A DNA stretch of 64,000 nucleotides, from positions 1-64,000 of IMG/VR virus record IMGVR_UViG_3300014047_000001. One strand, given 5' to 3'. This DNA is from a virus. Lineage: Duplodnaviria; Heunggongvirae; Uroviricota; Caudoviricetes. Below are positions 17,351-58,813 of this stretch, piece by piece. The translations under genes were made by a program, and so were the position numbers. The notes below the pieces were generated by a model. That model was given only the letters and a program-made list of their open reading frames with translations. It made no database searches and was not told where the DNA came from. Numbering within the stretch: the first letter of the stretch is position 1; each line of letters opens with the position of its first letter.

Positions 17351-18112
17351 ATGGGTAAAAGAACAGGATAGGATGAGATTATTGTTGGTGTTGTTGAGTC
17401 TATTGATGATCCAACATATTCTGGTCGTATAAAAGTAAGAGTAAAAGGATTTCATGATAATTTAAAAACAGAAGAGCTCCCTTGGTGTACATATGCAGGT
17501 TCATCAAATTTCTCAGGTACTGGTGGCGGTTCTATTTCTATTCCAAGAGTAGGTGCAACTGTACGAGTAAGGTTTAAAGATGAGAAATCTACATCAATGG
17601 AATGGACAGGCACAGGTACATTGGATAAGGATTTAATAAATGAAATCAAATCAGATTATGCAGGTTCACATGTTTTACTTTATGATACTGCTTCTGATAT
17701 TTCTATAAAATTCCAACCCGGATCTGGTTTAGTTTTATATTATAAAGGATCTTATATTCAAATAACGCCTGATAATAATATTACTATCCATTATGGAGAA
17801 GGTGCGACAGGAACACAAATACAATTATCTAATGGTCGTGTAGATATTCAAGCGCAAACACAGATTAATATAACATCTGGTAAAGCTATAAACCTTGAAG
17901 CAGATACAATTACATTAAATGGTAATACTGCTGTTCAGATAAAGGGTGATAAAGCTGGAGAGTGCGCCATAAATGGTGTACAACTTATATCAGCATTATT
18001 ACAGTTAGCGCAAGGTATTGATGCAAAAGTTCCGCAAACAGCCGGTCAAGAAGTAAGTTATGTAAATGCTGTTAAAGAAGGATTGTTAAATCAAAGTATT
18101 CAGTATATATGA
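17351..18112 (+). CDS. baseplate central spike protein (gpV/gp5 OB-fold plus beta-helix)
   Basis: ATG at 17351 is in frame with track ORF 17597..18112, across a TAG at 17369. The N-terminus (VGVVESIDDPTYSGRIKVRVKGF) matches the gp5/gpV OB domain. The C-terminal part has beta-helix-like repeats. Confidence 0.6.
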
Positions 18113-23405: not shown

Positions 23406-23408
23406 GTA

Positions 23409-23624: not shown

Positions 23625-23626
23625 TT

Positions 23627-25435: not shown

Positions 25436-25668
25436 GAAGAATAATAATATTAGATACAGAATCAAAAAGATTATTGAATATTATTTTATCTCCTGAACAA
25501 GAAAAATATTTAACAGAAGAGCTTAATAATGATATAGATCTTTTTATAAATGAAATTGTTGTAAAACTTTATCATATAAACTATAATAAATGTGCATATA
25601 TTACCGGTGATGTAAAGGATATAAAAGAAGAACATTATTACGGACCTAAAGTATTAGATAAAGTATAA
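25432..25668 (+). CDS. hypothetical protein
   Basis: 78-aa ORF. Confidence 0.4.
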   Translation: MRRIIILDTESKRLLNIILSPEQEKYLTEELNNDIDLFINEIVVKLYHINYNKCAYITGDVKDIKEEHYYGPKVLDKV

Positions 25669-25670
25669 TT

Positions 25671-26156: not shown

Positions 26157-26167
26157 ATTAAGTAAGT

Positions 26168-34146: not shown

Positions 34147-34266
34147 TTATTATGTAAAGTTCTTTATAATATTTGCTCTTATAAACTATGCCATGGTTAA
34201 TCCGTTATATTGGCAATTCGCATCTGATAATGCTGTTGCTGTTCCATCAATAACTGCTTGTATTTT

Positions 34267-34854
34267 CTAATCTAGGTTTGTAGTAGATGCTTTTATTATA
34301 TTTGCTGTTGCTAATCCAGAATCTTCTCCGAAATACATTCTACCATTTCTTATTGTTACTGCTGTTGTACCGTCTTCAGAAATATAAGGAACTATATAAT
34401 CGCCATTCTCTAAATTATCTTGTACAGCAGATTTAATTTCTTTCTTCTTAAGATTCTCATATGGTGTTTTATCTTTCTTATAATCCTGATTAGCAAATTT
34501 AAACATATTCCTAATTTGTGCTTCAACTGCCTTATTATCTGTAGTTGTTTGACCTTCCGCTGTACGAGCTTCTGCTTCTTCTTCATTAGGAATCATTAAT
34601 ATATCATCATCTTTTAATGAAAATGGATTAGATATACCAGAATATTTAAGGATAAACTCGGTATCCTTTGTATTACCATATTCTGTATTTGCTACCAAAT
34701 CTGGCCTCATTTCAAAAAATGATGACATTCTTTTTACGGTATATGACTATATCTCTGCTGCACTTTCTTTAAACATAGATGCAGCAAGATTAACGATTTC
34801 ATTACCTTTATCATCCACTATATGTGGTTTTTCATCTATAGAATGTGTAAACAT
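34267..34854 (-). CDS. hypothetical protein
   Basis: Track ORF 34267..34728 is extended 5' in frame across one TAG to an ATG near 34854. Confidence 0.4.
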
Positions 34855-34865: not shown

Positions 34866-37526
34866 TTATGTAGTAAATTTTCTTGTAATACCTAATGCTC
34901 TAACAGTTGATATATTAGAATTATTTATAAATGCTCTTGTATTAATATCTGATAATGTTTGATTTGCTTGTGATAAGGCAGCACCATTAAATTTCGTAAT
35001 AAGCTATGTATTATAATTTCCTGTATTTGATGATTCATGCCCTTGATCAAGTTTTACAGATTGATATGTACTACCAGAAACCCCAGCTTTTGCTTTTATT
35101 TCATTTGTATGCATATATCCAGGATTTCTAAAAGCAGAACCTCCAGTAAAATTATCTACGTGTGTTTCGAATTCACTTGAAGAGCGAATATAGTCAGGCA
35201 ATTCATATATAGCACCCATACCTCTATTAAACATCGACTGTATCGCCTTTTTATCACGCTGCATACCATGTTGTAAGGTATATACAACTTTAAGCTCTGT
35301 AGGAAAATCATCTGGCCCCAATTCTTCTCCAAATTGTACATCCATCTTCTCACATATCAAGTTACCAACAACAATAATAGGATTCAATGGATTACCGACT
35401 GTTAAATGCCATTCACCAACAGGATCACCAATAAGTATTGCATTCATTCCATGAATTTGTGGAGCAACAGATTTTGCAAGAACTTTTGAGTGCCACATTG
35501 TATTTAGATTATTAAATACATTATTAGCTGCAGCTTTTAAAGCATCATTATTTTTTCCACTTACTGCTTGCGCCCCTTTATCTAATATTGTAGATAATGC
35601 ATTTGTACCTTCACCAAATAATGCTGTTGTTACTGAACTTACAAGAGAACTTATACATGCTAAACCAGTTCCAAGCATACCACCTAATTTAGATGTAATA
35701 TTTGACCAATCAAAGCCTCCAGTATCACCAGTACCAAATTCTTTTACACCTTTTAACACAGTAGCAATTGCTCCATTATCACCAAAAATTTTACCATCAT
35801 AAAGTTTCTTCATGAAGTTATCACGCCATCCACCATCATGGAATGGATACATATGAGGTGTTATCATAAATCTATGGCCACCTCCCCAGAATATTGCAGT
35901 TGGAGAAACCATTTCCATACAGTTTGCCAGTATATCAAGCATTGCTGCTTTTGGATTTATACCGCCAATAGATTTTGTAACATATGTACATGTAACTTGG
36001 TAAGATGAATCAAATATAATACCTTCTTTTCTGCGTTTTACTGCTTGTATTCTATCTAACGGTCCTTGAATACGGTGTGAATATATATTTTCATATGGAT
36101 TCATATTTGCTGCTAACAGTTTCATCTGTGCATTTTCTGTCAAATCAACTTTTTTGTTTATCGCCATTGCCATTTTACCAAATGATAATATACGGTTGGT
36201 AACATTAGTACCTAAACTTAATAAGCCATTAAATGCATTATTATCAGCACCACCGAAACCACCATCACTACCAAACATTTCATCAATAACAGCTTGTGGA
36301 TCAGAACCATCTTCACCAGATACATCCCATATATCTGCAGTAGCTTCATCCCAATTAATACCCGTGGAGAATTTTAAAAAATCTTGGAAACTATTACCGG
36401 TTTCAGATCCAATATAAGAAACTACTGTACATCTTGGTGCAAACAATGTTGGTTTTTTTCCTCCGTCATTAGAAGATGTTCCTCCATTATCATCTCCGTA
36501 CATCTATTCAAATTGTAAATTATCTCTTGTTGGTGCATGATAGCGTCTTAATGTAATCAACCTATTATTTGGAATAATACCAAACCATTTACAATATACA
36601 AAATCTTGATAACTATAAGGAGTTCTGCCCCATATATCTTTATTAGACCATTCTATAATATGTGTTACTGTTGGTGATGCTACTTGTGTTATAGTATCAG
36701 GAGTACCTGTACCAGTATAACTATAAAATCTACGAGAGTCACGTATATCATACATAAAATTCTATGGGTTATCATCTGCACTTGTTGGCGCTTCAAAAGA
36801 ACCGACTAATTTTGTTAATGAATAAGGATTCATTAATGATGCAGCACCATAAAATTTACCATCTGTTTCATATTGGCGTATAACATCTTCTCCCATAACA
36901 GGAACTAAATCTCTCCTATTCTATGGAGAATTTGCAGCAATATCTACTTTTGGATCTGCTGGTTTACCATTTTTCTCCAAAGTTTTTTGGGCAACAGCAG
37001 CAGGTAACATATATACCATATCTGCAAATGCAGTAGCGACAGTATCAGAACCAAACGGAACTATTATTTTTGCTCCAGGTTCTCCATTATCAACAGCTTG
37101 TGATAATGACATATAAAATGTTTCCATACGTGATAAACGTGGATCCCATGCCATTAAATGCTAAATAGCTTCTTCATTCTTTTTTTCTGGACTTTCTTTG
37201 TCCAATTCTTCTTGTATAGCTAAACTATTCTCTCTACTACGATTTGCTAATAAATTGTCTCTTATATTATTAACAAAACTTTCTACAACTTCTCCATATA
37301 CAGTAGGATTATCCCCATACATAATAGCTAATGTATTAAGTACAGGGTTATCATAATTTTCATTTATCCATCTTTTAACATCGTCCTCTTTGTCTAACCA
37401 ATCTTTGACATTAATATCTACTTGATTACCAAATATATCTGTAAATGATTCATTAATATCTGTATTATTTGATAGATATGATGCTTTTATTCTTTCATAA
37501 AAATCATTTAATAATTGATCTGTCAT
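34866..37526 (-). CDS. virion structural protein (~886 aa)
   Basis: Track ORFs 35004..36503, 36504..36755, 36921..37154 and 37161..37526 are all in the same minus frame and abut at TAG codons. Read-through past TAG 35004 continues to TAA at 34866-34868. Confidence 0.5.
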
Positions 37527-40839: not shown

Positions 40840-43800
40840 ATGGGAAAACGATTAGACTTTGCAGGTGCAGCATTTGATCCAGTTGTAATGCGCTGGTATT
40901 ATGGAAATACAGATAAAGAACCAAATTCAATATATTCAGTTAAATCAGAAGTATTTAAGTAGGGTTATGAAGATCCTACTTATATGACTTTCCGTGTAGA
41001 ATTCGGAGAATGGGGAGCATCTGTTTTACATAGAAATGCTTTTACAATGCATGGAGGAATGGTATTGAATTCATAGCATCAAGATTATGATCAATTACCA
41101 AATGGCTTATTGGATTTACATTTTATTCCTGAAGAAACTTAGGAACAATATCCATTTTATACATTTAATAATCAAACATATTATAATGCTTATAATTATC
41201 TTAAACAACGTAATGAAGATGCAAGAGCAGAATATTTAAAGGCTTTTGTAACGGGATTATTTGAAATACAAAAAGATCACCCATATCTTTTTCAGAGTAT
41301 ATCAGGATTAGATGGTTTAAGCAATTTTTCACCAGAAAGTGGTCAACGTTTAAATAAAGATACATTTGTTACTATAGAATGTATTGAAGGGTTATCATTA
41401 AAGATAAAAACATTATTACAATTATATAGAAAGGCTGCATGGGATGATGCATGGCAAAGATGGGTTTTACCATTAAATATGCGTTAGTTCAAAATGATCA
41501 TTTATATTTTTGAACGTCGTATGTTTTAGGAAGTTAATAGGGTAAGTCCATTTACTTCTGAAAAACAATTACATACTGTAAATACAGATATTCCTGTTTA
41601 TGCATTTGAATGTAATCCTTGTGAATTTGTAATAGAGAATATATGGAATGGTAATTATGATGCAACATGGGGAGGTGATGCTGAAAAAACAAAGATAACT
41701 ATCCGTGTCAATAATGTAATGACATATTATAGAAATGGTTTACTTGATAGAAAATTGAATAATATATTAATTTATGATTTATTTGATGCTATAGATCGTC
41801 AAAGTACCACTACAGTATATAGTTCCAATACTAATATGTCTGTAAATCAAACAAAAGGTCAATTCTTAAAAAAACATATATTATTAGAAAATGAAGATGT
41901 TGCTATAAATGATTCTCGCATAATGTATGGTACAGGTGAAGAATTATTAGATGAGGATCCATATATAGCAGAACCATATTATAGAGAAATAATTAATACC
42001 ATGATGCCTCATTCTTTATTAGGTGAACGCATAAAAGCTAATTGGTGGCATGAAGCTACGGTAGAAGGCCGTGATTACTGGAGTAGCATGAGCGGATGGG
42101 ATGGTTTATTTGGCGGAGGCACATGGAGAAATATTGGTAAAGGCTTATGGAATGTTATAACTGCTGCTACTACGCAAATTCGTGTATCTCAGAATTACAG
42201 CACTCATAATTCTACAGTATTTTATAATATTCTTGATTATATAGAAACTGAAGGTTCCCCTGCAGAAGAAACTTATAGTATGGCTACTGAATATCTTTTA
42301 CCCGTACGTAAAGATTTGAAACATAATGCAGATGCAGCAACTCGTGGAGAATCTTCATGGGCTACAAGAGAAGTAGGTAAAGGCAAATTCAGAGATTAGT
42401 CAAGAGAATTGGATGCAATAGATTCTGAAGCATTAACAGAGAATGATTATTCATGGGCAACAGATGATAAAGATGCCGAAGGAAATCATGATTGGACAAA
42501 ATTCAGAGATAATCCTAATAAACGTCAAAAATCAAAATTTAACTGGAATAAAATAGATTCCAGTACAATGACCGGTGGAGATTTTTCATGGGCTACTACT
42601 GATTATAATGAAGCAGGAAATGTAAAAGGAAATGATTGGTAGAATTCTGCACAATATAAATCATCAGAAGTACCTCGTCAAAAGAATGGATTTGTATGGA
42701 ATAATATAGATTCTAATACATTAACTGGTGGAGATTTTTCATGGGCTACAGATGATAAGAATAATCATACAGATCATAAATGGGAAGATTTTGATAAAGA
42801 TCATATGCAAGACGGCCAACGTTAGAAACAAGCATTTGTTTGGAATAGTATAGATTCTAATAAATTATCGGAAAACGAAAGGTCAAAAGCAACGAAAGAT
42901 GGTAATAAAATACAAGAAGGACTTAATAGAGATTTATTAACAGAATATGATTATTCATGGGCTACTCAAGGAGAAGGATAGAAAGAACATGATTCTAATA
43001 TGGCATTCAGAAAACCCGATAATACTGAAAGAAATTCTGTTATAGATAAACCTATAGAAAGCGGGGGTATAGATTCTGCTGATTTAACAAATTATGATTA
43101 TTCATGGGCTACTCAAGACCTTATGAATGAATATGATCATCCTGTAAAAATAAAAGGTGGAGGGTTAGATACATCTATAAGAGAATAGAATAATAATATT
43201 CAAGTATCATTAGAAGATCCTCGTCTAGATCCTAGTTTAAATTTAATTTCAGTTGAAAGAAAAGATCGCAAGGGCAATAATGAAATATAGTATCCTATTT
43301 TAGATACATCTCGTGGATATGAAAAAACATTTAATTCAACAGATTTTTCCAATAGAGAAATGAATGAGCAGCTTCCCCCAACATTAGAAAGGGAATCTAA
43401 AAATTTTGTAAAACCTAATCTAAGAACTGTTGATGATACTGAACGTGGTATAAATGAAGAAATAATATTTGCTGGTTTAGATGAACGTACATTAAATACG
43501 GATATTGTATATGATCCATTAAAAGAAAGAAAATTAGATAAACCGGAATTCAGAGATATTGATAATGAACGTACTTTACCAGAATCACAATTTGGTGAAA
43601 TTCAGGGTACACGTAATATTGACAGAGATATTCAAATGAAATTAGAAAATCCTCGTTCAATACCAGAGCAAATAATGAATAATACTGAAGAAGAAAGGAA
43701 ATTTGACAGTAATTTACGTGAAACAGATTTTAAGGATCGTACAATAAATCAAAGCGTTGAACCATTAGAATATCAAGATAGAGAATAGAATAATAATGTT

Positions 43801-44877
43801 CATTTATAGATAGAAGATGCACGAGAACTTCCAAATTATCAAAATAACCAAAATGTATTAGAAGAGCGTAAAATTATTGATCAAGCATTAAGGCAACCAG
43901 ATAAAGAATTAATACGTCCGGAACATAGTTTAACTTCTGTAGATACGCATAAACGCGGTATAAATGATAATAGTTATTTCTCATTACAAAATACAGAAAG
44001 ATTCATAGATAATAATATTCAAATAGAAAATTATGAAGCACGTGTTATTAATGAGTAGCAATTAAGGAGTTTGAGCGATGAAGAAAGAAAGCAGGTAGAA
44101 GTTGTATTAAATCGACCAGATATATTAAATTATATTAGTAAAGCAACTAATGCAGCATTTAATGCAGAATTCCGTAAGGTTGATCAAGAATCATCAAGAA
44201 TAGACGCGACTGCTAAAGGTATGTTATAGAACTCTGAAGTATTCAAGAATTTACAATATGATGAAAATATAAAGGACAAGGATTTGACACAAGTTTTGGC
44301 TTTTGCAAAAGCTTATTCAGACGAATCTGACGCGATGAAAAATGCTTTCATTACTCGTATATAGGGGTTATAGAAAGAACTCAAAGAACAAACATTAAAC
44401 ACAGTCAGAGACATTCCTGAAATGGAGTATTAGATAATGAAAGATGAGAAATCGGAAAAGCAAGAACCTATTCTATTATCTGTAGAGCAAGTAGAGCAAA
44501 TAAAGAATAATGTAAAACTTGCTTCATTGGCAGACGCAGAAATAAGAGATTTATCTTATAAAGGTTTAATTTCTTTACATGATGCATTGGAGAATAATAT
44601 TGTAAAAACAATGATATTATAGAAACCTGATACCGTTGATGATAGAAGTATTGCAACAGATTTAGATAATCCACCTAAGCCAATTATAAATGGGAAAATA
44701 GATTAGGGGGAAGATAAAGATCCAAAGAAAATTGTAAATGGTAAGACAGAAGGTAATAATGCAAAGAATCTATATAATAATATTAGCAATGCAAAAATTG
44801 AGCAACCATCTAAGAAGCAAAGACCAATATTAGGACATAGATTAGATGATAAAAAATATAAAAAAGAGGGTTAGTAA
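40840..44877 (+). CDS. giant virion protein (1345 aa) with tandem (D/E)(Y/F)SWAT repeats
   Basis: Frame 1 is open from ATG 40840 through track ORFs 41719..42399, 42409..42642, 43000..43188, 43360..43788 and 44437..44622, crossing about 25 TAGs, to TAA 44875-44877. Confidence 0.55.
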
Positions 44878-44895
44878 AATTAACCCTCTTTTTAT
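44866..44895. terminator. rho-independent terminator (bidirectional)
   Basis: AGAGGGTTA-GTAAAAT-TAACCCTCT followed by TTTTTAT. It lies between convergent genes. Confidence 0.5.
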
Positions 44896-47800
44896 TATTG
44901 ACCTTCATTTTCAAAAACAGTATTTTGTAATTGTATCTCTGCTGTTCTATAATTATATGCATTATAATTATCTATTGTAAATTGTCCACCTGCATATTGT
45001 ATAGGGTTATTACCATAATAATCTTTTGCAGTTTTCCAGAAATCATCCTGGTGCTCATCATCTGTTCCAATATGTATATGCTTGCTTTGCGTACCCATAT
45101 CATCTGTGGAAACCTCTATATAAGCAGAAACACCATGATCATACATAAGCTTTAATACACCGCCATTACCAAATATATGATTCTTTAATACGTCATTAAA
45201 AGATATACCGTTATTAATTATATCAATAGCTTCACCATATAAATGTCTAGAATTATTTGTACTGATATACATTATATTTCCACGAGCATCCTTACATTTA
45301 TACTTATCTCCACTCTTTACAAATGCATTACCTTCAACTTTTTCTCCATTAGTATCTACTGCATATCTCCTTGCACCAACGAGTTTTATTTTATGTGCAG
45401 AAGACTCATCTATAGCTCTGTAAATATCTTTCATGAAATCTTTTAAACCAGTCAAAGGTACATCACCCACGTTATCTTCTTCAGCTACTTTATTATCCTA
45501 AGAAATTTCTTCTTCTGTTTTATTTGCTGTTACGTTATCACCTGTTGGTGTATTTGGATTAGGATTTGTACTTTCATTTGTAGGTATATTATTCTATTGT
45601 TCCGCTAAAGAATTCTTTACATTTTGATAACCAGGAATTGGCCATTCTCTGCGTGTTAATTCTAATTCTGTAGACCATGCTGATTCAGCGCGCTTTGGCG
45701 TACTTGTAAATATCCATTTAATAGATTTAATAATAAACCATCCAGATAATGTTGTATAAGTACAAGTGTTTAAGAAACGTGCATGCAAAGTATTTTCATC
45801 AACTTTTACTTCTTTTCCTGTAGATGGATCAAATGTTACCGGATTAGTGCTCAAAAGTGATGTTAATTTGTTATTGTCCAAGAATAATGTAGGAATTTTT
45901 TCACCTCTCATCATTGCAAAGTTTGCGCCATTCAATTTAACCTTTACAATCTTCTTAAGTAATTGCATGTTATTAATCTTATTATGCTCAAAAGCGGCAT
46001 CATAAAATTTATTAACATTACCGGTAGCTAATTCATTACTTCCTGTATCTGCAATAGTTTCTCCATCGGAATCTGCCATCATATCAGAATCTCTACCTCC
46101 ACGTTTCTTTGTATTCTATTTAACATAAGAACCATTATCTGCTTGTACATAAGTTCCATTAGTACCTGGACCTACTAATATATAGAAACCACCATTTGGA
46201 TATTTAGCAGCATTATATGGTATTGAATATGTCATTTCTACTGCATTATTATCTGGTTCAACGCCCTGATTATTAATAACAAAATTTGTTGTTACTGATA
46301 TACCAACCTGCTTTGTTATTTCTGCTGCTTGATTGACTTCTTTAAAATCTATAGCATATAATGCTGTACCAGCTTCATCATCATTCGGTATATTTGTAAT
46401 TAATTTCAACTACGGACGCGGAGCTGATTTTTGTTCTCCATCTGTTGCAGAACCATGCTGATTATCTACACCTCTATTATGCTTAAACACATCATTAAAT
46501 AAAGTTATATCAAATGTTTCATCAGGACCGTCTTCACCAAGCATTTTATTAACATTCAAGAAAGTCAATCCATAACGGGGATCTATCCAAGCATCAAAGA
46601 ATGATTCAAAGTTTTTCCATGAATGTGCAACTGTATCCTTAATATAATCCATTAAATTTGAACCTTGTGCTTTACCCTCTTCATCTGAAGATTCTGCCAT
46701 ACAATACCATAATTGGTTGTCATCTGTATTTTCTGGATCACAGAAGAAAAAGCCTAATCCTAATTTTGCTGCTGCATCTATCATTGCATCTCTACTAGTT
46801 CCTGCAAAAGAGAATGACATATTAGCATTATGTAAATTAGGTATAAACAATTCGCCCATTATGGTAAAATTATAAGGAACATTTAATTGATTCTATGAAA
46901 CTTCACTACTATCTACATAAGTTATAAGAAAATCACAACGTAAAGATTTTATCATACCATGACCTGGCGAACAGAATACTGCAATAATATCGCCTTCTTT
47001 TGGAACATTTGTTTTTAATAAGTCATTATTAGTTGTTGTAATTTCTAATGTAATTGTAGGAATAAATCCTACACATGCTATTTCCATTCTATCTATTTCT
47101 TTCTATGAGAAATAATAATCATTAATACGAATAATAGGATATGTAGCGCCAACTTCCAATGTAATATCTGGCTGATTTCCAGAAAGCTTCTAAGAACCTG
47201 CAGACATATCTTCAACATTTGCATATGTTGCTGTACTTGAATCCGCTGAATAATGCATACCAGTAGCAGGATTTATAGGTGTATTATTACCATCCATTGG
47301 TAAAGATAATTCGTCAAGCTATATAGTAGGTTCACTATACTTATAAATACGTGTACGTTTTTGTCCGTCTTCAGTACCACCAGCTGATAACTATGAATAT
47401 ATATTATCGCCGGCAGTTGCCAATACACTTGGTGCATTAGAAGAATATTGATTCTATACACCTGCAAGCTGATCATAATAATTATCCATATTATTTTCAT
47501 CTATTGGTGGAGTGGGTGCATTTCCATCATATCCTTCTGAATAAAATAAATTTGCTTCTCTTATTCGACGTCTTCTTAAGCCTTTTTCATGGCGAGAACC
47601 CGGTAATACATAAGAAGATTGCCATGTAGTTGTAACCTTTGATTTATTTTTATATCCATTACCCTATATAGTTTTTCCTAATGTAGTACGTGATATATTA
47701 CCATGATTATATGCAATACTAAACATAGCATCAAACATACTTTGCGTCATACCAGTATGCCATATTTTGTTTACATCCGCAGAAATAGTTTTTGAATCCT

Positions 47801-47975
47801 ACTTAAAGAATGCCATACATTCTGTATCTGAATAACGTTTACCATTAACGAGATCTCTAGAATGATGTCCAAATCCAACAGTTGGATATGATTCGCCATC
47901 TAATATATATGCAACATTAGAATAACCTTCTGCAGTTTTTAAAAAATTAAACCCGTTTTGACTTATCTATGCCAT
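44895..47975 (-). CDS. virion-associated dual-domain lysin: N-terminal GH24 (T4-lysozyme-like) plus C-terminal M15 peptidase (1026 aa)
   Basis: Track ORFs 44895..45470, 45594..46082, 46116..46409, 46410..46859 and 46893..47087 share one frame and are joined by TAG. Manual translation of 47088..47975 is open apart from TAGs. The N-terminus TAEGYSNVAYILDGESYPTVGFGHH matches the T4 lysozyme EG...TIGIGH motif. The C-terminus SRHLYGEAID...HIH is M15/VanY-like. Confidence 0.6.
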
Positions 47976-48011: not shown

Positions 48012-48050
48012 TAAAAAATGTGCTATCAAAATTGGTAGCACATATTTTCT
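48012..48050. terminator. terminator hairpin (AAAAATGTGCTAYCA core), copy 1
   Basis: ATGTGCTATC-AAAATT-GGTAGCACAT flanked by A- and T-runs. It lies 3' of the LRR gene. Confidence 0.45.
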
Positions 48051-48122: not shown

Positions 48123-51100
48123 TTATTGTTCTACTTTAGTCCAATTATAACTACCTAAATAATAACTATCTGTACTCATCCATGTATCATAACCAGTACT
48201 ACCAGCAGGTACTGTTAATGTGCCACCTCGCTTTACACTGTTAAATGTACGCTTTACTATTGTAGGTGCTGTCATCGCATTAGATACTATATTTGTTAAA
48301 CCGCTACAATCATTGAAAGCATAATTACCAATACTTGTAACACTATTTGGAATTGTTACACTTGTTAAACCGCTACAGTTACTGAAAGCCCAACCACCAA
48401 TGTTTGTAACACTATCCGGTATGACTATACTTGTTAAACTACTACAACTACCGAAAGCACTACTACCAATACTTGTAACATCGCTTGGTATAACCGTATT
48501 TTTGCAACCACTAATAAGAGTATTTGTTGCAGTCTCAATAATTGCATTACAGTTATTACGTGAGTCATATACTGTATTATTGCTATCAACGGTAATACTT
48601 GTAAGACTACTACATCCCATGAAAGCACTACTGCCAATACTTGTAATACCACTACCAATGATTACATTTGTTAAACCATCACACCATTCCAAAGCATAAT
48701 TACCAATACTTGTAACACTATTTGGTATATTTATGCTTGTAAGACCACTACATCCTTGGAAAGCACTTTCACCAATGCTTGTAACTCCACTACCAATAGT
48801 TACACTTGTTAAACCGCTACAGTTATTGAAAGCTTTATTATCAATGTTTGTAACACTATCCGGTATGACTATACTTGTTAAACTATTACAACCATAGAAA
48901 GCCTCATTACCAATTGATGTTACTGAATCTGGTATAATTACATTCGTAAGTCCTGTACAATAACTGAATGCATTGTTACCAATTGATGTGATACCTTCAG
49001 GTAATGTAAATAAAACAGTATGTTCACCTGTTGAATTAAATGTATAGTATTTTTCAACTTTTTTTTCCTCGCCATCCACTTTCATTGAACTAAAATTATT
49101 AGTACTATCTAATAATGTTGTTGGGTGGCTTGTATCAGCAACATTATATTTGCACAATACTTGGTTTTCTTCTAATATTGTCCAATTATACTTACCTAAA
49201 TAATAATCGTCGGTTCCCATCCAAACATCATATCCAGTAGAACCTGCTGGTACAGTTAATATACCATCTGACTTAATACTTTGGAATGTCCAATCTTGTA
49301 TAGTTGGAGCAGTAGTTGCATTACATGTTATATTCATAAGACCTGAACAATTATAGAATGCGGTATCACCTATAGATGTTACTGAATCGGGTATAGTTAT
49401 GCTTGTAAGTTCAGAACAATTTTGGAATGCAGCGCTACTTATTGATGTCACAGAGTTGCCTATAATTACACTTGTAAGTCCTCTACAACCAGAGAATGCA
49501 GCACTACTTATTGATGTCACAGAGTTGCCTATAATTACACTTGTAAGTTCAGAACACTCATAGAATGCAGCACTACTTATTGATGTTATAGAATCGGGTA
49601 TAATTATGCTTGTAAGTCCTGAATCAGAGAATGTATATTCACCTATTGATGTTACTGAATCGGGTATAGTTATGCTTGTAAGCCCTGAACAACCAGAGAA
49701 TGCATAATCACCTATTGATGTGACTGAATCAGGTATAGTTATGCTTGTAAGCCCTGAACAATAAGCAAATGCATGATTACCAATTGATGTCACTGAATTA
49801 CCTAATGTCACACTTGTAAGTGCAGAACAATTATTGAATGCATATTCACCTATTGATGTGACGCCATCTGCTAATGTAAATAAAACAGTATGTTCACCTG
49901 TTGTACTAAATGTATATGAATTTGCAATTTCAAGTTGTTTAACTCCATCTATTGACATAGAACTAAAATTATTAGTAGTACTATTTAATAATGTTGTTGG
50001 ATTTGCTATAGAAGTAACATTATATTTGCATAATACTTGGTTTTCTTCTAATATTGTCCAGTTATACTTACCTAAATAATAATCGTCGGTTCCCATCCAA
50101 ACATCATATCCTATAGAACCTGCTGGTACAGTTAATATACCGCCTGCCTTAATATGGTAGAATGTATTAGATGATATAGTTGGTGCGGTAGTTGCATTAC
50201 ATATTATACTTGTAAGTCCAGTACAATAAGCAAATGCGCTTCCATCTATAGATGTTACAGAATTACCTATTGTTACGCTTGCAAGTGCTGAACAACAAGC
50301 GAATGCACCTAAACCTATTGATGTTACAGAATTACCTATTGTCACACTTGTAAGTCCAGTACAATTAGCGAATATACTTGCACTAATTGATGTTACAGAA
50401 TTACCTATTGTCACACTTGTAAGTCCAGAACAACCCATGAATGCACCTCCACCTATTGATGTTACAAAATTAGGTATAATTACACTTGTAAGTCCCGAAC
50501 AACCAGAGAAAGCATTATCACCTATAGATGTTACAGAATTAGGTATAATTACGCTTGTAAGTCCTGAACAATTTTTGAATGCATTGTTACCTATAGATGT
50601 GACAGAATTACCTATTGTTACACTTGTAAGTCCAGAACAACCCATAAATGCACCTCCACCTATTGATGTGACTGAATTTGGTATAATTATACTTGTAAGT
50701 CCTGAACAACTATTGAATGCAGCTCCATCAATTGATGTTACAGAATCTGGTATAGTTACGCTTGTAAGAACAGAACAATTTTGGAAAGCACCAGAACCTA
50801 TTGATGTCACTGAATTTGATATGATTATGTTCGTAAGTCCAGAACAATTGACGAATGTGCCTGGTTCAATTGATGTGACAGAGTTACCTATAATTACACT
50901 TGTAAGTTTAGAACAATCTTGGAATGCACTTGTACCCATTGATGTTATACCATCTGCTAATGTAAATAAAACAGTATGCTCACCAGTTGTATCAAATGTA
51001 TATGAATTTGCAACTTCTTTTTCTTCTCCATCAATCTCCATTGACTTGAATATATTCTGCCCATAGCTTGTTCTTAATGTTGTTGGTATGCCTGTAGAAG

Positions 51101-51944
51101 TAACATTATATTTGCATAATACTTGATTTCCTTCTAATATTGTCATTGTCCAGTTATACTTACCTAAGTTTTCTGAGTAATAATCATCTTTTCCCACCCA
51201 AATATCATAACCCGTAGAACCTGCCGGTACTATTAATGTACCTCCAGACTTAATACCTTGGAATGTATTTGGATATATTGATGGAGCAGTTATCACATTA
51301 CATATTATATTCGCAAGTGCAGAGCAATTATTGAATGCACCATAACTAATATCTGAGATTGAATTACCTATTGTTACATTTATAAGTCCAGAACAATCAG
51401 CAAATGCACCTGCACTAATTGATGTTACTGAATCTGGTATAGTTATGCTTGTAAGTCCAGAACAATATTGGAATGCGGCAGAATTAATATATATTACAGA
51501 ATCTGGTATAGTTATACTTGTAAGAGCAGAACAACCAGAGAATGCACCTGGACCAATTGAGGTAACTGAGTTGCCTATAATTACGTTTGCAAGTGCAGAA
51601 CAATTTTCGAATGCTCCTGTATCTATTGATGTTACACCATCTGCTAATGTAAATAAAACGGTATGTTCACCAGTTGTATTAAATATATATGATTTTGTAA
51701 CTTCTTTTTCTTCATCATCCACTATCATTGAACTAAAATTATTAGAACTATTAAATAATGCTGTTGAAGTATTAATATCAGTAACATTATATTTGCACAA
51801 TATTTTAGATCCGGTAAAAGGATTAAAATAAGGTTTATTCTAATCTTCACATAAAGATACATTGGGTAAAATAAATTTTGATATATCAGATGCATAAGCT
51901 TGATATTCCTATACAGTATTAAATAATTTTATGTATCTCCCCAT
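48123..51944 (-). CDS. BspA-type leucine-rich-repeat (LRR_5) surface/receptor-binding-like protein (1274 aa)
   Basis: The 1225-aa track ORF has no internal TAG. An upstream in-frame ATG at 51942-51944 is reached across two TAGs. About 22-aa repeats (F..C..L.S(V/I)TIP.SVTSIG..AF) are organised in four modules of about 300 aa, each opening with NQVLCKYNVTS...TTGEHTVLFTL. The gene ends at TAA. Confidence 0.65.
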
Positions 51945-53589: not shown

Positions 53590-54192
53590 ATGGCAGATAC
53601 AACTAGTAATGGTTTAATGAGATTACCACACTTTACAAGTTCTAAAGTCAGCATGGACAAAGACGAACCTATATACACTAACCTGTTCACTATCACGTTA
53701 GTCCCACCAGCATCTATTGCAAATGAAAATGATTAGGATACGTTGGTAGTTCTTGAAGGTATCAAGAGTATATCTGGTTTGAATACACAGCCAGGTAATG
53801 GTACAGTATCTCAGAAGTATAAGTTTGCTGAGCGTATGTTCGCAGGTCCAGCACCATCTCAGACACACTTGACATTGAATATAGCATTCCAGCTTAATGT
53901 CCGTCCTGGTGTTGCATCTGATGAAAACTATACTTATAAGTTCTTGCGTAAGTGGCATGACCTTGTATATGATCCATTGACAGGTCGTATGGGTATCAAG
54001 CAAGAATATGCTGCATCTAGTATGACAATTACAATGCAAGATCGTAGGGGTGTTCCATATTGGCAGTGGATTTGTTATAACGTTTGGCCTTCTGGTCAGC
54101 TTAATGGTCCAGATCTTTCATATGACGGTGGGCAGATTATGGAAGCACAGTGTCAGTTTGAGGCAGACTACTTCGATGAATCAATTCTTTAA
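53590..54192 (+). CDS. tail tube protein (T4 gp19 family)
   Basis: ATG at 53590 is in frame with track ORF 53743..54192, across one TAG. The NLFTITL motif corresponds to gp19 NLFQVEI. GC content is higher here. Confidence 0.6.
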
Positions 54193-54258: not shown

Positions 54259-54513
54259 TTAAAATAGAGTAATTGCTCCAAAGAATACAATAGATGAAAT
54301 TATAATATATTTTATAATTTCTTTTATTGATGCAGTTTCTCTATTTTCATCAAACAATTTCATTTCTTTCCTTGCAGGATTATCTTTGAAATGAAAATCC
54401 CAATCGGTGAAATTACTTTTTGTTGGATTCATTGCAAACACTTTTTCCCAAGGTGTATTTGCATTTACATTACTTGTTATCTGTACAGGATAACCATTAG
54501 AATAATCTATCAT
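54259..54513 (-). CDS. tail-anchored small membrane protein
   Basis: 84-aa ORF with a C-terminal transmembrane segment. It overlaps the stop of the HD gene. Confidence 0.4.
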   Translation of the reverse strand: MIDYSNGYPVQITSNVNANTPWEKVFAMNPTKSNFTDWDFHFKDNPARKEMKLFDENRETASIKEIIKYIIISSIVFFGAITLF

Positions 54514-55169
54514 ACAATCTCATTTGTTTTTAAATCATACTCAGTTTCCATCAAGAATGATGCAAAGCAATCTGCTTGTGCAATAACCATTACAAGAGGT
54601 ACATCATTAATAGCCTTCATAAAAGCAGGTTTTTCATAGAATGAAAGGAATGTGCCAGGATCTGTAAATCCCATATGCCATCTGATTGCAAGAATTTCTT
54701 CACCCGTTAAACGAATAAATTGCTGTGCAATCAATACAGACTTTTCTCCATGTCCCAATGGAAATGTATCATTAATATCATATGCGATATATTTCTTCCA
54801 TTGATTACCATATGGTGCATTTTCATCCTTCCATGTTTTTATAGCAGGTACATAATAATTAATCTTACACAAATCATGAAGCAATGCAGCAACTATAAGA
54901 GTTTCATCACTAATAGAATCAATATTCTTTTCTGGTAAAGCAATATCCTTCATATTGTCTCTAATCTTTACTGCAGCTTTATATACATTCAATGAATGTG
55001 CAAGTAATCCGCCCTTACAATTATTATGATACTTAGTAGAAGATGGTGCTTCATAAAAATCACATTTATCTAGCCATTCTATTAAGTTCTCAATACCTGG
55101 TCGTTGAACAGAAGACAAAAGCTGTTTATACACTGCCTTCATTTCTTCTAATTGTAAATTTGTAAACAT
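54510..55169 (-). CDS. HD-domain phosphohydrolase
   Basis: H...HD motif (LLHDLCK) plus downstream His and Asp residues typical of the HD superfamily. Confidence 0.65.
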   Translation of the reverse strand: MFTNLQLEEMKAVYKQLLSSVQRPGIENLIEWLDKCDFYEAPSSTKYHNNCKGGLLAHSLNVYKAAVKIRDNMKDIALPEKNIDSISDETLIVAALLHDLCKINYYVPAIKTWKDENAPYGNQWKKYIAYDINDTFPLGHGEKSVLIAQQFIRLTGEEILAIRWHMGFTDPGTFLSFYEKPAFMKAINDVPLVMVIAQADCFASFLMETEYDLKTNEIV

Positions 55170-56348: not shown

Positions 56349-57239
56349 ATGATTAATCAAGTAGATTTAAGAGCATATAAGAGTGTAAAATATGTAGGCG
56401 ATATACATGGCTTATTTAAAACACTTGTATTCGATGCTATAGACCGTAGAAAATATAAGGATTGCCTTATAATTGTCTGCGGTGATATTGGTTTTGGGTT
56501 TGTTTCTTTCAAGAAAGAAAAAGAGAATTTGATATATCTTGAAAGAGATTTAGCAAAAAATAACATTTGTTTAGCATTATTTAGAGGCAATCATGATGCA
56601 CCAGATGTTTTCAAAGTAGATAATCCTTGGAGATTGTCTATTGAGGAGATATGTCCGCATATTAAGATTATTCCTGATTACTCCATTCTTAATACTGTTG
56701 ATGGTAATATTTTGGTAGTTGGTGGAGCACGTTCTATTGACAAGGCAAATCGTATTCCAGATTATAGCTGGTGGGCAGATGAAATGGTACAACCAGTACC
56801 AGAGAATTTTTATCAGGAGTTGAATGATAACAATATTAAGATTAATGTTGTTTGTACACATACATCTCCTATATTCTGTAAGCCTTTTAATCCTTCTAAA
56901 GATGATCAGGGATATTTTGTAGAGCAGTGGTCAAAGTATGATGATACATTAAAAGAAGATAATTGGGTAGAGCGTTGTGCATTGAAAATTATGTATCAAG
57001 ATTTAGTGAATAATGGACATCCTATTACTTACTGGATTTATGGTCATTTCCATGATCATTTTGAATTGGAATATGAAGGCAGAAAATTCATAGGCCTTGA
57101 TATGTGTTACCAGAATAAGCGGAGAGTTGATGTAGAGGATCCAAGTACCTATGAAGTAGTTGAAACTTATTATAAAGTATTAGATGATTGGTATTGGCTT
57201 TCTGAAAAAGGAAAAATTGGCAATAGAGTAGAGAAATGA
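56349..57239 (+). CDS. calcineurin-like metallophosphoesterase
   Basis: GDIHG, GDxGxG and GNHD motifs are present. Confidence 0.65.
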   Translation: MINQVDLRAYKSVKYVGDIHGLFKTLVFDAIDRRKYKDCLIIVCGDIGFGFVSFKKEKENLIYLERDLAKNNICLALFRGNHDAPDVFKVDNPWRLSIEEICPHIKIIPDYSILNTVDGNILVVGGARSIDKANRIPDYSWWADEMVQPVPENFYQELNDNNIKINVVCTHTSPIFCKPFNPSKDDQGYFVEQWSKYDDTLKEDNWVERCALKIMYQDLVNNGHPITYWIYGHFHDHFELEYEGRKFIGLDMCYQNKRRVDVEDPSTYEVVETYYKVLDDWYWLSEKGKIGNRVEK

Positions 57240-57391
57240 CATTACATGATTTAGATGAGATAAAAGATTATATAAAAAAGAATCTGAAAATAGAGCATAG
57301 ACAATTAAAGATGGGTTCTACTAATACAGTAGAAATTATTCTTAAATTGGATAATCAAGAAATAAGTACAACCAAATTTTCAATAGTTTAA
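57236..57391 (+). CDS. small hypothetical protein
   Basis: 51-aa ORF in ATGA overlap with the previous gene, below the track cut-off. Confidence 0.3.
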   Translation: MTLHDLDEIKDYIKKNLKIEHRQLKMGSTNTVEIILKLDNQEISTTKFSIV

Positions 57392-57392
57392 T

Positions 57393-57878
57393 ATGGAAAA
57401 ATTAGAAAAGATAGGTTTTTATCCTGGTAGTTTTGATCCTTTTCATGAAGGTCATAGCTATATTGTAAATATGGCATTAGATATTTTTGATAAAGTAATT
57501 ATATGTATTGCTATTAATTCTGACAAGACTCCATTCTTTCCTTATAAGCAAAGAGAAGATATTATTAAGGAAATATACAAGGATAATGATCGTGTGGAAG
57601 TAGTATTATGTGATGGGCTAGTTGCTATGAAAGCAGCAGAACTTAATGCTTCTGCAATTATTAAAGGAGTAAGAGATGAAAAAGATTTTGGATATGAAAT
57701 GAAACAAGCAGATTGTAATATGTTTATTAATCATATTCCTACTGTTTTTATTCCAAGCAGTCCAAACCTTTCATTTATAAGCAGTACATTAATTCGTGCA
57801 ATTATTACTGGAGTAAAGGATAAAAAGAAAATTCATGATATGCTTTTGGGCATAGTTAATAGAAAGTTTTATGAGTAA
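57393..57878 (+). CDS. cytidylyltransferase-fold nucleotidyltransferase (PPAT/NMNAT-like, HxGH)
   Basis: N-terminal GFYPGSFDPFHEGH is a CoaD-like YPGSFDP motif with the PFHxGH of NadM-type NMN adenylyltransferases. Confidence 0.6.
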   Translation: MEKLEKIGFYPGSFDPFHEGHSYIVNMALDIFDKVIICIAINSDKTPFFPYKQREDIIKEIYKDNDRVEVVLCDGLVAMKAAELNASAIIKGVRDEKDFGYEMKQADCNMFINHIPTVFIPSSPNLSFISSTLIRAIITGVKDKKKIHDMLLGIVNRKFYE

Positions 57879-58173
57879 AATTGATTGGAATTTGATGCAT
57901 CTCGTTGATAAAGATTTACGAGAAGCTATAGGTATAGAATCACGTGATTGGAAATTTAATAATAGTCCTGCTGGAATGATTAATGTCGCAAGACGTGAGA
58001 AAAAACTTGATCCATTCCATTATTTACGAGAAGCTGTTAGTTATATTTTATTACAGAAAACATCAACAATAGAAGATGAAGAAGAAGCAGCAAAGTTTAT
58101 GAACAATGGAATACATGGATTTAGTGTATTCATTGAAGAAAATGAAAATCTTAAAAAGTTTTTAGATTCTTGA
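57871..58173 (+). CDS. hypothetical protein
   Basis: 100-aa ORF. Confidence 0.45.
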   Translation: MSKIDWNLMHLVDKDLREAIGIESRDWKFNNSPAGMINVARREKKLDPFHYLREAVSYILLQKTSTIEDEEEAAKFMNNGIHGFSVFIEENENLKKFLDS

Positions 58174-58236
58174 CTTTGGATAAACTATTATTTGATTGTT
58201 AAATATAATTAATGTATCAAAAAATAATTTAGAAAA

Positions 58237-58794
58237 ATGAGAGAGAATATTAATAAACGTGTATAGTTTACTAAGTCAAGAAATGTAAAAACTCCAGTTC
58301 GTGCCAACCGTCATGACGCTGGTACGGACTTTTTTGTACCTTTTTATGATCAGCAATTTATTGAAGATATGCTGATTAAGAATAAGGATAATAGAATTTT
58401 CTATAGACCTATTCTTGATGAAAATAATACTGTAGTAGATATGGAATTTGTTATTCCTGCAGGAGAGCAGATTAACATCCCTTCTGGTATTCATGTATGG
58501 ATTCTTGATAAGTCTACATTCCTTCAGGCTACTAATAAATCTGGTGTAGCATCAAAGTTTCATTTGGATGTAATGGCAAATACTATTGATGCAGATTATC
58601 AGGGTGAAGTGCATATCAACTTAAGTAATAATGGTAATACAGAAATTACTATTAAGACTGGTCAGAAGCTTGTACAGTTTATTCATAAGGAATATATTGA
58701 TACAGAATGGGAAGAAATTTCTACAGATGATTATGCAAAGATTGATGTATCTGACAGAGGATCCGGTGCATTTGCAAGTACAGGAAGTTTTTAA
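58237..58794 (+). CDS. dut: dUTPase
   Basis: ATG at 58237 is in frame with track ORF 58369..58794, across a TAG at 58264. Motifs DAGTD and C-terminal RGSGAFASTG are present. Confidence 0.7.
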
Positions 58795-58813
58795 AATTAA
58801 TTATTAATTAACC

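What the first reader, a model, noticed from the sequence alone, without database searches (positions are those of the whole stretch)
44895..47975. A 1026-aa virion-type protein combining a T4-lysozyme-like GH24 domain and an M15 (VanY-like) peptidase domain
Once TAG is read as sense, a single open frame spans two catalytic domains. The N-terminal roughly 160 aa carry the lysozyme motif around EGY...GESYPTVGFGHH. The C-terminal roughly 190 aa carry an SxHxxGxAxD...HxH zinc-peptidase signature. About 600 aa of unknown function and a Pro/Asn/Thr linker lie between them. Its size and its position beside structural genes suggest a tail or ejection-associated peptidoglycan hydrolase that cuts both glycan and peptide bonds. 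Standard annotation would show five unrelated small ORFs.
Basis: partly seen in the sequence, partly recalled or inferred. Interest (0 to 1): 0.6.

Follow-up and report, generated by a model that had tools for sequence, protein, structure and literature searches.

The report
Megaphage baseplate hub carrying two lysins
This is one long gene of a Lak-like giant gut phage, readable only if TAG means glutamine, that encodes the central hub of the tail baseplate with a lysozyme at one end and a zinc-peptidase-like domain at the other, most likely to cut the host cell wall during infection.

Summary
On the minus strand, 47975..44895 is one 1026-codon frame. It has 13 in-frame TAGs, no internal TAA or TGA, and ends in TAA. 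TAG aligns with Gln codons in relatives.

The N-terminus (aa 14-140) is a clear GH24 phage lysozyme (Pfam E=2e-18).

The closest relatives are Prevotella Lak megaphages (about 40% identity). Across 53 homologues the hub and C-terminal domain are constant. The N-terminal module varies between GH24, PF18013 tail lysozyme, an M15_3 peptidase, a small beta domain, or nothing.

A separate lysozyme-free spike gene lies at 17351-18112.

The closest functional analogue is the diffocin hub-hydrolase. This is a new variant of a known kind. Catalysis and virion location are inferred, not shown.

The parts
44895..47975 (-). Whole gene: 1026 codons plus a TAA stop, with 13 in-frame TAG codons read as Gln. 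It encodes a baseplate hub with two cell-wall hydrolase domains.
   Evidence: A full-length homologue, P0001, is 96% identical over 100% of the length and has Q at all 13 TAG sites.
47556..47936 (-). GH24 phage lysozyme domain (aa 14-140). Catalytic Glu E16 is at nt 47928-47930, D26 at 47898-47900 and T32 at 47880-47882.
   Evidence: Pfam PF00959, E=2.2e-18, 67 bits against a cut-off of 22.3. phrog_7 endolysin, E=4e-26. PDB endolysins, E=3.5e-10. Alignment with T4L, P22 and P21 lysozymes.
47298..47360 (-). Short conserved segment KRTRIYKYSEPTIQLDELSLP (aa 206-226) between the lysozyme and the hub. It is shared by family members with different N-terminal modules or none. It is probably the true N-terminal end of the hub core.
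   Evidence: Consensus of alignments A1 and A4 and the N-terminal sequences. The model is of low confidence here, so its role is inferred.
45606..47153 (-). Baseplate central hub domain (aa ~275-790), gp27 / Mu gp44 / P2 gpD / VgrG-N type, with insertions.
45462..45593 (-). Pro/Asn/Thr/Glu-rich linker (aa ~795-838) between the hub and the C-terminal domain.
   Evidence: Sequence. Length and sequence are variable in alignment A1. The end of the hub model has low pLDDT.
44976..45458 (-). C-terminal LAS-type (M15-like) zinc-peptidase-like domain (aa ~840-1000). S909-x-H911-x2-G914-x-A916-x-D918 is at nt 45222-45251 and H966-x-H968 at nt 45072-45080.
44861..44893 (-). Terminator-like hairpin (13 pairs, then a T-run) starting 2 nt after the stop codon. 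It lies between this gene and the convergent gene 40840-44877 and is probably bidirectional.
   Evidence: Function not tested.
48018..48043 (.). Hairpin followed by a T-run on the minus strand, between the upstream LRR gene and this gene's ATG. It suggests the hub gene has its own transcription start.
   Evidence: This is a consensus match only.
17351..18112 (+). Separately encoded baseplate spike (OB-fold plus beta-helix, 253 aa, 1 TAG) without a lysozyme. It is the likely partner of the hub.
   Evidence: Pfam PF04717 Phage_base_V, E=3.7e-7, 30.8 bits against a cut-off of 23.8. It is 54% identical to the Phage_base_V gene near the hub homologue in L006.

Best explanation
The gene encodes the central hub of the contractile-tail baseplate of a Lak-related megaphage, which probably infects Bacteroidota. 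It is translated with TAG as glutamine.

Inferred mechanism:
- The middle 500 aa form the gp27-like hub. By analogy with solved hubs, this is a trimer that sits under the tail tube and holds a separate spike (17351-18112).
- Two enzyme domains are tethered to the hub by flexible linkers. One is an N-terminal GH24 lysozyme that cuts the glycan strand. The other is a C-terminal LAS-type zinc peptidase that cuts the peptide stem or cross-link.
- When the tail contracts and the spike crosses the outer membrane, three copies of each enzyme reach the peptidoglycan and open a local hole for the tube.

What is shown: the single reading frame, the GH24 domain, the hub fold, the conserved zinc-ligand motif, and homology to Lak phages. 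What is inferred: trimeric assembly, virion location, both activities, bond specificity, and timing.
For: Reading frame and code:
- The frame has only TAG as an internal stop.
- Window TAGs align with CAA (Gln) in two relatives at the conserved site aa 522, and with CAA in L004 at aa 361 and aa 59. Gln is the commonest sense codon opposite TAG, 17 of 86.
- Lak phages are reported to use code 15 (PMC6784885).

Domains:
- GH24: Pfam E=2e-18. E16 and T32 align with T4L E11 and T26.
- Distant relatives of this domain are fused to glucosaminidase, PF18013 or LysM domains.

Family and context:
- The N-terminal slot holds different muralytic modules in different lineages.
- A spike gene, a baseplate-subunit-like gene and a LysM-like gene lie in the window, with synteny to related loci.
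Against: - No experiment and no virion proteomics are available.
- The hub model is only of moderate confidence (pLDDT 60.8) and was built on a 96%-identical homologue, not on the window sequence.
- The Asp20-equivalent of the lysozyme is D26 here, with a one-residue shift. It is Pro or Lys in the closest homologues.
- The hub gene is not next to the LysM-like/886-aa pair that adjoins the hub-only homologue in LR756500.1.
- No suppressor tRNA is present in these 64 kb.
Confidence: 0.8

Rival explanations
1. The protein is a hub with only one active enzyme. The C-terminal LAS-like domain would be a non-catalytic module that binds zinc or peptidoglycan, or docks in the baseplate (compare the pseudo-active site of hedgehog). 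Only the GH24 lysozyme would cut the wall.
For: Similarity to real peptidases is remote. The best sequence link of the wider family is to hedgehog, not to an enzyme. Some family members have lost ligands: D918N plus H966T in 4 of 5 members with a PF18013 N-terminus. In diffocin the hydrolase domains also bind the baseplate wedge (PMC10996793).
Against: All four motif residues, plus S909, G914, A916 and E954, are kept in about 90% of 54 diverged homologues at 35-45% identity. Decay is seen in those lineages that carry another N-terminal enzyme, which fits relaxed selection on a catalytic function. Distant relatives keep TSGxR...SxHxxGxAxD...HxHIG invariant and sit in lysin-type architectures.
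Confidence: 0.15
2. The protein is an endolysin or other lysis-from-within enzyme rather than a virion component. It would be made late to release progeny.
For: PHROGs and NCBIfam label the N-terminal domain 'endolysin'. TAG recoding is proposed to delay lytic genes (title of bioRxiv 10.1101/2021.08.26.457843).
Against: Half of the protein is a baseplate hub fold. Many family members have no recognisable N-terminal enzyme. A related locus carries a conventional Amidase_2 plus PG_binding_1 lysin right beside the hub gene.
Confidence: 0.03
3. TAG is a true stop here, and the region holds several short genes or a decayed pseudogene.
For: Standard-code ORF calling gives 8 fragments. No suppressor tRNA lies in the window.
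Against: There are 13 TAGs and no TAA or TGA in 1026 codons, P of about 1e-26. Full-length homologues exist down to 35% identity. TAG pairs with CAA or CAG at conserved columns. The hub fold crosses the TAGs. TAG-sense reading lengthens many other genes in the window.
Confidence: 0.02

Closest known systems
Diffocin hub-hydrolase CD1368 (Clostridioides difficile R-type bacteriocin; PDB 8v3w; PMC10996793)
   Different: In diffocin both enzymes follow the hub at the C-terminus. They are an MltA-like lytic transglycosylase and an NlpC/P60 endopeptidase, and the target is Gram-positive. Here the enzymes flank the hub (GH24 at the N-terminus, LAS at the C-terminus) and come from other families. The hub is about 200 aa larger. 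The gene belongs to a recoded megaphage whose relatives infect Gram-negative Bacteroidota.
Phage T4 gp27-gp5 cell-puncturing device
   Same: A trimeric hub plus spike of a contractile tail carries a GH24 lysozyme that digests peptidoglycan locally during penetration (established knowledge; Table 2 of PMC5380687).
   Different: In T4 the lysozyme is inserted in the spike protein gp5, and gp27 has no enzyme. Here the spike (17351-18112) has no lysozyme and the hub carries it, together with a second, peptidase-like domain that T4 lacks.
Baseplate hubs of phage P1 (gp6), Mu (gp44), P2 (gpD) and R-type pyocin
   Different: Those hubs are 320-380 aa with no enzyme domains. Sequence identity is 8-13%, and no Pfam hub model is matched.
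Phage phi29 gp13 and Bacillus SP-beta CwlP (tail lysins with a lysozyme/transglycosylase domain plus a LAS-family M23 endopeptidase)
   Same: One virion protein combines a glycosidase with a LAS-superfamily zinc endopeptidase joined by a linker. CwlP is listed in PMC5380687. phi29 gp13 is from my own knowledge.
   Different: They are not hub proteins. Their peptidase is M23 (HxxxD...HxH), not the M15-type SxHxxGxAxD. Their hosts are Gram-positive.
Staphylococcus phage phi812/K hub with CHAP (C51) domain, and siphophage Tal proteins (80alpha gp59, Tal2009)
   Different: They carry a single enzyme class of a different family (CHAP, M23 or lipase). Their hosts are Gram-positive.
Homologues in Prevotella Lak megaphages (Lak-A/B/C, MK250015-29)
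   Same: About 40% identity over aa 229/276-1026, with the same hub and C-terminal domain and the same TAG recoding (19 TAGs in Lak-B5). A syntenic baseplate-subunit gene is present.
   Different: The Lak-A/B/C proteins have no GH24 domain. Their N-terminus is a small beta-rich domain followed by Asp/Asn/Ser/Gly-rich low-complexity sequence. The records are unannotated, and the Lak papers I searched do not mention this protein.

Membership tests
GH24 phage lysozyme (Pfam PF00959) | Score above the curated Pfam gathering threshold over the whole domain | tested here: met
   67.2 bits against 22.3, E=2.2e-18, profile positions 2-125 of 125.
GH24 phage lysozyme (Pfam PF00959) | Catalytic Glu (T4L E11) and Thr (T4L T26) equivalents | tested here: met
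   E16 and T32 align with T4L E11 and T26 and with the P22 and P21 lysozymes.
GH24 phage lysozyme (Pfam PF00959) | Second acidic residue (T4L D20) at the canonical E-x8-D spacing | tested here: inconclusive
   The window has D26 at E-x9-D with D-x5-T kept. The closest homologues P0001-P0006 have Pro or Lys there and a conserved 'PGE' Glu28 instead.
GH24 phage lysozyme (Pfam PF00959) | Muramidase activity on peptidoglycan | not testable with these tools
   Needs the expressed domain and a sacculus or zymogram assay.
Peptidase M15 (Pfam M15_3 / M15_4 VanY-type) | Score above the gathering threshold of a Pfam M15 model | tested here: not met
   M15_4 scores 13.7 bits against 25 (E=0.097). M15_3 scores 12.7 bits against 23.2 (E=0.14). 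Both match only around the SxHxxGxAxD motif.
Peptidase M15 (Pfam M15_3 / M15_4 VanY-type) | VanY-type second motif ExxH | tested here: not met
   The second motif is H966-I-H968 (HxH), conserved as HYH in the family. That ExxH defines VanY is from my own knowledge.
LAS / hedgehog-DD-peptidase zinc-peptidase superfamily (MEROPS clan MD) | Zinc-ligand signature H-x6-D ... H-x-H, conserved across homologues | tested here: met
   H911 in 52/54, D918 in 48/54, H966 in 48/54 and H968 in 51/54. The motif is intact in 47 of 54 rows.
LAS / hedgehog-DD-peptidase zinc-peptidase superfamily (MEROPS clan MD) | Characteristic fold | tested here: inconclusive
LAS / hedgehog-DD-peptidase zinc-peptidase superfamily (MEROPS clan MD) | Statistically supported sequence link to solved members | tested here: met
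   The link is transitive. The A2 profile finds 44 proteins between E=1e-10 and 1e-3 (108 at E<=1e-3 in all), the ones examined matching across the motif region. A2 against A5 by hhalign gives 99.1%, E=4e-19. The A5 profile against PDB gives sonic hedgehog 1.7e-4, M15C endopeptidases 0.004 and Ply500 0.095. The direct A2-to-PDB search failed.
LAS / hedgehog-DD-peptidase zinc-peptidase superfamily (MEROPS clan MD) | Zinc binding and peptidase activity | not testable with these tools
   Needs metal analysis and muropeptide cleavage assays.
gp27 / Mu gp44 / P2 gpD baseplate central hub | Hub fold | tested here: met
gp27 / Mu gp44 / P2 gpD baseplate central hub | Match to a sequence model of the family (e.g. 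Pfam Phage_GPD) | tested here: not met
   No Pfam, PHROG or NCBIfam hub model is matched at E<=1.
gp27 / Mu gp44 / P2 gpD baseplate central hub | Genomic company of spike, LysM-like and baseplate genes | tested here: met
   The spike (PF04717) is at 17351-18112. A baseplate-subunit-like gene is at 53590-54192 and is syntenic in Lak-B5. A LysM-like gene is at 34150-34854, and its homologue directly precedes the hub-only homologue in LR756500.1. The genes are scattered over 37 kb rather than contiguous.
gp27 / Mu gp44 / P2 gpD baseplate central hub | Trimer at the tip of the tail tube in the virion | not testable with these tools
   The phage is uncultured, and no multimer prediction was available.
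Genetic code 15 (TAG = Gln) phage gene | TAG is the only in-frame 'stop' and aligns with Gln codons in homologues | tested here: met
.
Genetic code 15 (TAG = Gln) phage gene | Suppressor tRNA with anticodon CUA in the genome | tested here: inconclusive
   ARAGORN finds no tRNA in the 64 kb window. The window is a small part of a genome that is probably several hundred kb. Lak genomes encode such a tRNA (PMC6784885).

The most novel reading that the evidence does not exclude
The hub of Lak-type megaphages is a modular enzyme carrier. It has a constant, previously undescribed LAS-type peptidase at its C-terminus. It also has an exchangeable N-terminal 'cartridge' (GH24, PF18013 lysozyme, M15_3 peptidase, a beta domain, or none) that is swapped between lineages to match host wall chemistry. 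The C-terminal active site decays when the cartridge makes it redundant. This would also be a dual-enzyme virion lysin in phages of Gram-negative hosts, whereas a 2017 review stated that all known two-domain virion lysins came from phages of Gram-positive hosts (PMC5380687).
Probability: 0.35. Interest if true: 0.6.

Novelty: new variant of a known kind. Interest (0 to 1): 0.45.

Why it matters
- It gives a concrete structural role, with testable enzyme domains, to a conserved and so far unannotated protein of the Lak megaphages. These are uncultured and among the largest phages of the gut.
- It shows how reading TAG as a stop hides a 1026-aa structural gene as eight fragments.
- It defines a divergent branch of LAS zinc-peptidase-like domains that current Pfam models miss. 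In metagenomes this branch recurs in lysin-type architectures.
- It extends the 'hub-hydrolase' design, with a glycan cutter and a peptide cutter on the baseplate hub, from a Gram-positive-targeting bacteriocin to phages whose relatives infect Bacteroidota.
- The two small domains are easy to express and could be tried as lysins against Prevotella.
- It does not open a new mechanism. Virion-associated lysins and hub fusions are well known.

Tried and rejected
Searches and jobs that gave nothing:
- Direct sequence searches of the C-terminal domain against PDB, as a single sequence and as profile A2, gave only chance hits.
- Foldseek of the C-terminal model against PDB gave no significant hit.
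- The afdb50 library was not available.
- hhalign of A2 against the Pfam-verified M15_3 domain of P0051 gave only 6.7% probability, although it aligned the SxHxxGxAxD motifs.
- Pfam, PHROGs and NCBIfam gave nothing for the middle 600 aa and almost nothing for the neighbouring large proteins.
- The Lak papers contain no mention of lysozyme, hub or peptidase.

The hub was therefore modelled on P0001, which is 96% identical.
- A Pfam scan of the whole alignment A1 exceeded the size limit.
- Loci L002, L003 and L006 were not available to the scripts, so they were read with the translate tool.

Readings considered and rejected:
- crAss-like phage origin: the best hits are Lak phages and the structural proteins are myovirus-type.
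- A T6SS VgrG or an extracellular contractile injection system: the homologues lie on phage contigs of up to 780 kb, one of them near a T4-type portal gene.
- Endolysin.
- Several separate genes.
Full report
**1. The observation**

The feature lies on the minus strand. Translating 47975..44895 gives a frame that starts at an ATG and is preceded 9 nt upstream by an in-frame TAA. It runs 1026 codons to a TAA stop. It contains 13 in-frame stops, and every one is TAG. There is no internal TAA or TGA.

TAA plus TGA make up 5.7% of all trinucleotides in this 30% G+C window. A run of 1026 codons without them therefore has a probability near 1e-26. The longest such run in 50 shuffles was 212 codons.

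Under the standard code the frame breaks into eight ORFs of 42-191 aa. The only thing missing from it was the strand.

**2. TAG is a sense codon, most likely glutamine**

Reading TAG as sense lengthens many other genes of the window. Total ORF length in ORFs of at least 150 aa rises from 12,610 to 18,810 aa.

The database holds a full-length homologue, P0001, that is 96% identical. It has Gln at all 13 positions, but it was itself predicted with a recoded table.

To avoid that circularity I aligned the DNA of this gene with two homologues, L004 and Lak-B5.
- At the best conserved TAG site (aa 522) both relatives have CAA.
- At aa 361 and aa 59, L004 has CAA.
- At eight sites the window has CAA or CAG where a relative has TAG.
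- Overall, Gln is the commonest sense codon opposite TAG, 17 of 86.

Devoto et al. reported code 15 (TAG to Gln), a suppressor tRNA-CUA and release factor 2 for Lak phages (PMC6784885). No tRNA lies in these 64 kb, which says little for a fragment of a genome that is probably several hundred kb.

TAG use is patchy. Structural-looking genes carry 6-16 TAGs per 1000 codons, while many other genes have none.

**3. Where it comes from**

tblastn of the protein against 50,697 phage records finds the fifteen Prevotella Lak megaphage genomes first. They match at 39-41% identity over aa 229/276-1026.

Two other proteins of the window have the same best hits, at 43-49% identity. More distant hits are jumbo phages of Tenacibaculum, Chryseobacterium and Flavobacterium, Sphingomonas phage PAU, and huge uncultured phages.

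Homologues of the protein lie on contigs of up to 781,859 bp. The window is therefore part of a Lak-related huge phage. A Bacteroidota host is likely but inferred.

**4. The N-terminal domain**

Residues 14-140 match Pfam PF00959 (Phage_lysozyme) end to end, with E=2.2e-18 and 67 bits against a cut-off of 22. They also match phrog_7 'endolysin' and solved phage lysozymes, with E=3.5e-10 to 8hp8.

In an alignment with T4, P22 and P21 lysozymes, E16 and T32 take the places of T4L E11 and T26. D26 takes the place of D20 with a one-residue shift. In the closest homologues that position is Pro or Lys, and a neighbouring Glu ('PGE', E28) is the conserved acid.

The domain is a GH24 member. Whether the second acid is D26 or E28 is open.

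**5. The middle 600 residues are a baseplate hub**

No sequence library recognises this part. The model is of moderate quality, with pLDDT 60.8 and pTM 0.64. The core blocks are confident and the insertions disordered.

- several VgrG proteins

The first 32 hits are all hub, Tal or VgrG proteins. The fold spans the TAG codons at aa 291, 361, 522 and 620, so it is further evidence for one continuous protein.

The context fits.
- A 253-aa spike with the Phage_base_V OB domain, without any lysozyme, is encoded at 17351-18112.
- A T4 gp19-like protein at 53590-54192 is annotated 'baseplate subunit' in Tenacibaculum phage PTm1. It keeps its position upstream of the hub gene in Lak-B5.
- A LysM-like protein at 34150-34854 and the 886-aa protein beside it have homologues in the uncultured 462-kb phage LR756500.1. 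There they sit directly upstream of a hub-only homologue of about 550 aa. This is the order I recall for P2 gpX-gpD.
- The locus of homologue P0013 shares the window's order. It has a spike, dUTPase and HD protein upstream of the hub gene, then a large convergent gene and proteins of about 590, 550 and 915 aa.

**6. The C-terminal domain**

Residues 836-1026 have no TAG and gave a confident model, pLDDT 93.2. The motif residues are highly conserved in 54 sequences: S909 48, H911 52, G914 52, A916 52, D918 48, E954 50, H966 48 and H968 51. H-x6-D plus H-x-H is the zinc-ligand pattern of LAS enzymes (from my own knowledge).

The direct tests give a mixed picture.

Negative or weak results:
- Pfam M15_4 (E=0.097) and M15_3 (E=0.14) match only the motif and stay far below threshold.
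- Sequence and profile searches against PDB fail.
- Foldseek finds nothing.

Positive results:

I then searched 1.84 billion representative proteins with the domain profile. Beyond the hub family, the distant matches I examined cover the motif region. These proteins share invariant TSGxR...SxHxxGxAxD-IxP...DET...HxHIGxD. In the ten I scanned, the domain is joined to Glucosaminidase, PF18013 tail-lysozyme or LysM domains. One of the ten overlaps a near-threshold M15_3 match.

Profile-profile comparison of the hub domain with this group gives 99.1% probability, E=4e-19. The hub version has an insertion of about 28 residues before the SxH motif. The group's profile hits sonic and Indian hedgehog (E=1.7e-4) and M15C endopeptidases 8q2g and 23ri (E=0.004). 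Below significance it also hits Ply500, YodJ, ChiX and T5 endolysin.

So the domain is a remote member of the LAS superfamily with the M15-type first motif. It is not a member of any current Pfam M15 family, and its HxH differs from VanY's ExxH. Activity is inferred.

**7. The family is modular**

The 53 homologues share the hub and the C-terminal domain, at 35-96% identity. The N-terminal module differs between lineages:
- GH24 in P0001-8 and P0018-21
- PF18013 'phage tail lysozyme' in five members
- a bona fide Peptidase_M15_3 in P0051 (E=1.3e-21)
- a small beta-rich domain followed by Asp/Asn/Ser/Gly-rich sequence in Lak-A/B/C and many others
- nothing

The C-terminal motif is intact in 47 of 54 rows. 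Four of the five PF18013-bearing members have D918N plus H966T or have lost the motif. The M15_3-bearing member has H-x-D in place of H-x-H. This fits a catalytic site that is kept by selection unless another enzyme takes over. That reading is my inference from few lineages.

**8. Mechanism proposed**

By analogy with solved hubs, three copies would form the cup under the tail tube and hold the separate spike. The lysozyme and the peptidase-like domain hang on flexible linkers (aa ~150-270 and ~795-838). After contraction they would reach the peptidoglycan, one cutting glycan strands and the other peptide stems or cross-links.

The closest described design is the diffocin hub-hydrolase CD1368. 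It is a gp27-like hub with a flexible loop, a lytic transglycosylase and an endopeptidase, described as scissors that also dock on the wedge before firing (PMC10996793).

The differences from diffocin are the enzyme families, their placement on both ends of the hub, the larger hub and the likely Gram-negative host.

In T4 the lysozyme sits on the spike gp5 instead. A 2017 review noted that all virion lysins with two lytic domains then known came from phages of Gram-positive hosts. It also noted that only phi6 gp5 showed endopeptidase activity among phages of Gram-negative hosts (PMC5380687). This family would be an exception if both domains are active.

**9. Gene boundaries and expression**

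A 13-bp-stem hairpin with a T-run starts 2 nt after the stop (44893-44861). It lies between this gene and the convergent 1345-aa gene. Another hairpin (48018-48043) separates the gene from the upstream LRR gene. These are pattern matches only.

**10. Verdict**

The protein is the baseplate hub of a Lak-related megaphage, carrying a GH24 lysozyme and a remote LAS-type peptidase-like domain. It is a new variant of a known kind (hub-hydrolase, virion-associated lysin).

Confidence is about 0.8 for the hub-with-lysins reading. It is lower, about 0.6-0.7, that the C-terminal domain is an active peptidase. Interest is moderate.

Noticed in passing
window 48123-51944 (-): A 1273-aa protein made almost entirely of BspA-type leucine-rich repeats (PF13306, E=8e-271, 11 stretches). 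It lies directly upstream of the hub gene and has only 2 TAGs in 1273 codons, against 13 in the hub gene. It is absent from this position in the related loci L001 and L006. It may be a recently acquired adhesin or receptor-binding protein.
   Followed up: partly
window 40840-44877 (+): A 1345-aa protein with 21 TAG codons, the highest density in the window. It has six 'D(Y/F)SWAT' repeats between aa 506 and 760 and no family match. It is convergent with the hub gene. Large convergent genes (1334 and 916 aa) hold the same position in L004 and L006.
   Followed up: partly
window 17351-18112 (+): A separate baseplate spike gene (Phage_base_V OB domain plus beta-helix-like C-terminus, 253 aa, 1 TAG) with no lysozyme domain. 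It lies 27 kb from the hub gene.
   Followed up: yes
window 53590-54192 (+): A 200-aa protein resembling the T4 gp19 tail-tube/baseplate-subunit family. It is 49% identical to Lak phages, is annotated 'baseplate subunit' in Tenacibaculum phage PTm1, and keeps its place upstream of the hub gene in Lak-B5.
   Followed up: partly
window 34150-34854 (-) and 34866-37526 (-): A LysM-like 234-aa protein (weak phrog_15542 match) lies next to a conserved 886-aa protein. In LR756500.1 the same pair sits directly upstream of a hub-only homologue. In this window the hub gene has moved about 10 kb away.
   Followed up: partly
whole window: TAG use is a mosaic. Genes at 12165-14121, 22300-27160 and 56349-59959 have no TAG, while structural-looking genes have 6-16 per 1000 codons. 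This fits the regional TAG use reported for Lak genomes. No tRNA gene is present in the 64 kb.
   Followed up: partly
window 59983-61020 (-) and 61045-61929 (-): Two adjacent genes share a nearly identical 25-aa N-terminus ([25 protein letters not shown]) and then diverge. The second consists of DUF285 'Mycoplasma' repeats (PF03382, E=8e-78).
   Followed up: no
window 54510-55169 (-), 57393-57878 (+), 58237-58794 (+): Genes for an HD-domain protein, a cytidylyltransferase-like protein and a dUTPase lie between the tail genes. HD and dUTPase genes hold the same position upstream of the hub gene in L006.
   Followed up: no
homologues P0013, P0017, P0026, P0034 (alignment A1): Family members whose N-terminus is a PF18013 tail lysozyme have lost C-terminal zinc-ligand residues (D918N, H966T, or the whole motif). 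Members with GH24 or no N-terminal enzyme keep them.
   Followed up: partly
locus L004 21541-22734 (-): An IS605 OrfB / Cas12f-like TnpB gene lies near the T4-type portal gene, on the 340-kb phage contig that carries homologue P0006.
   Followed up: no
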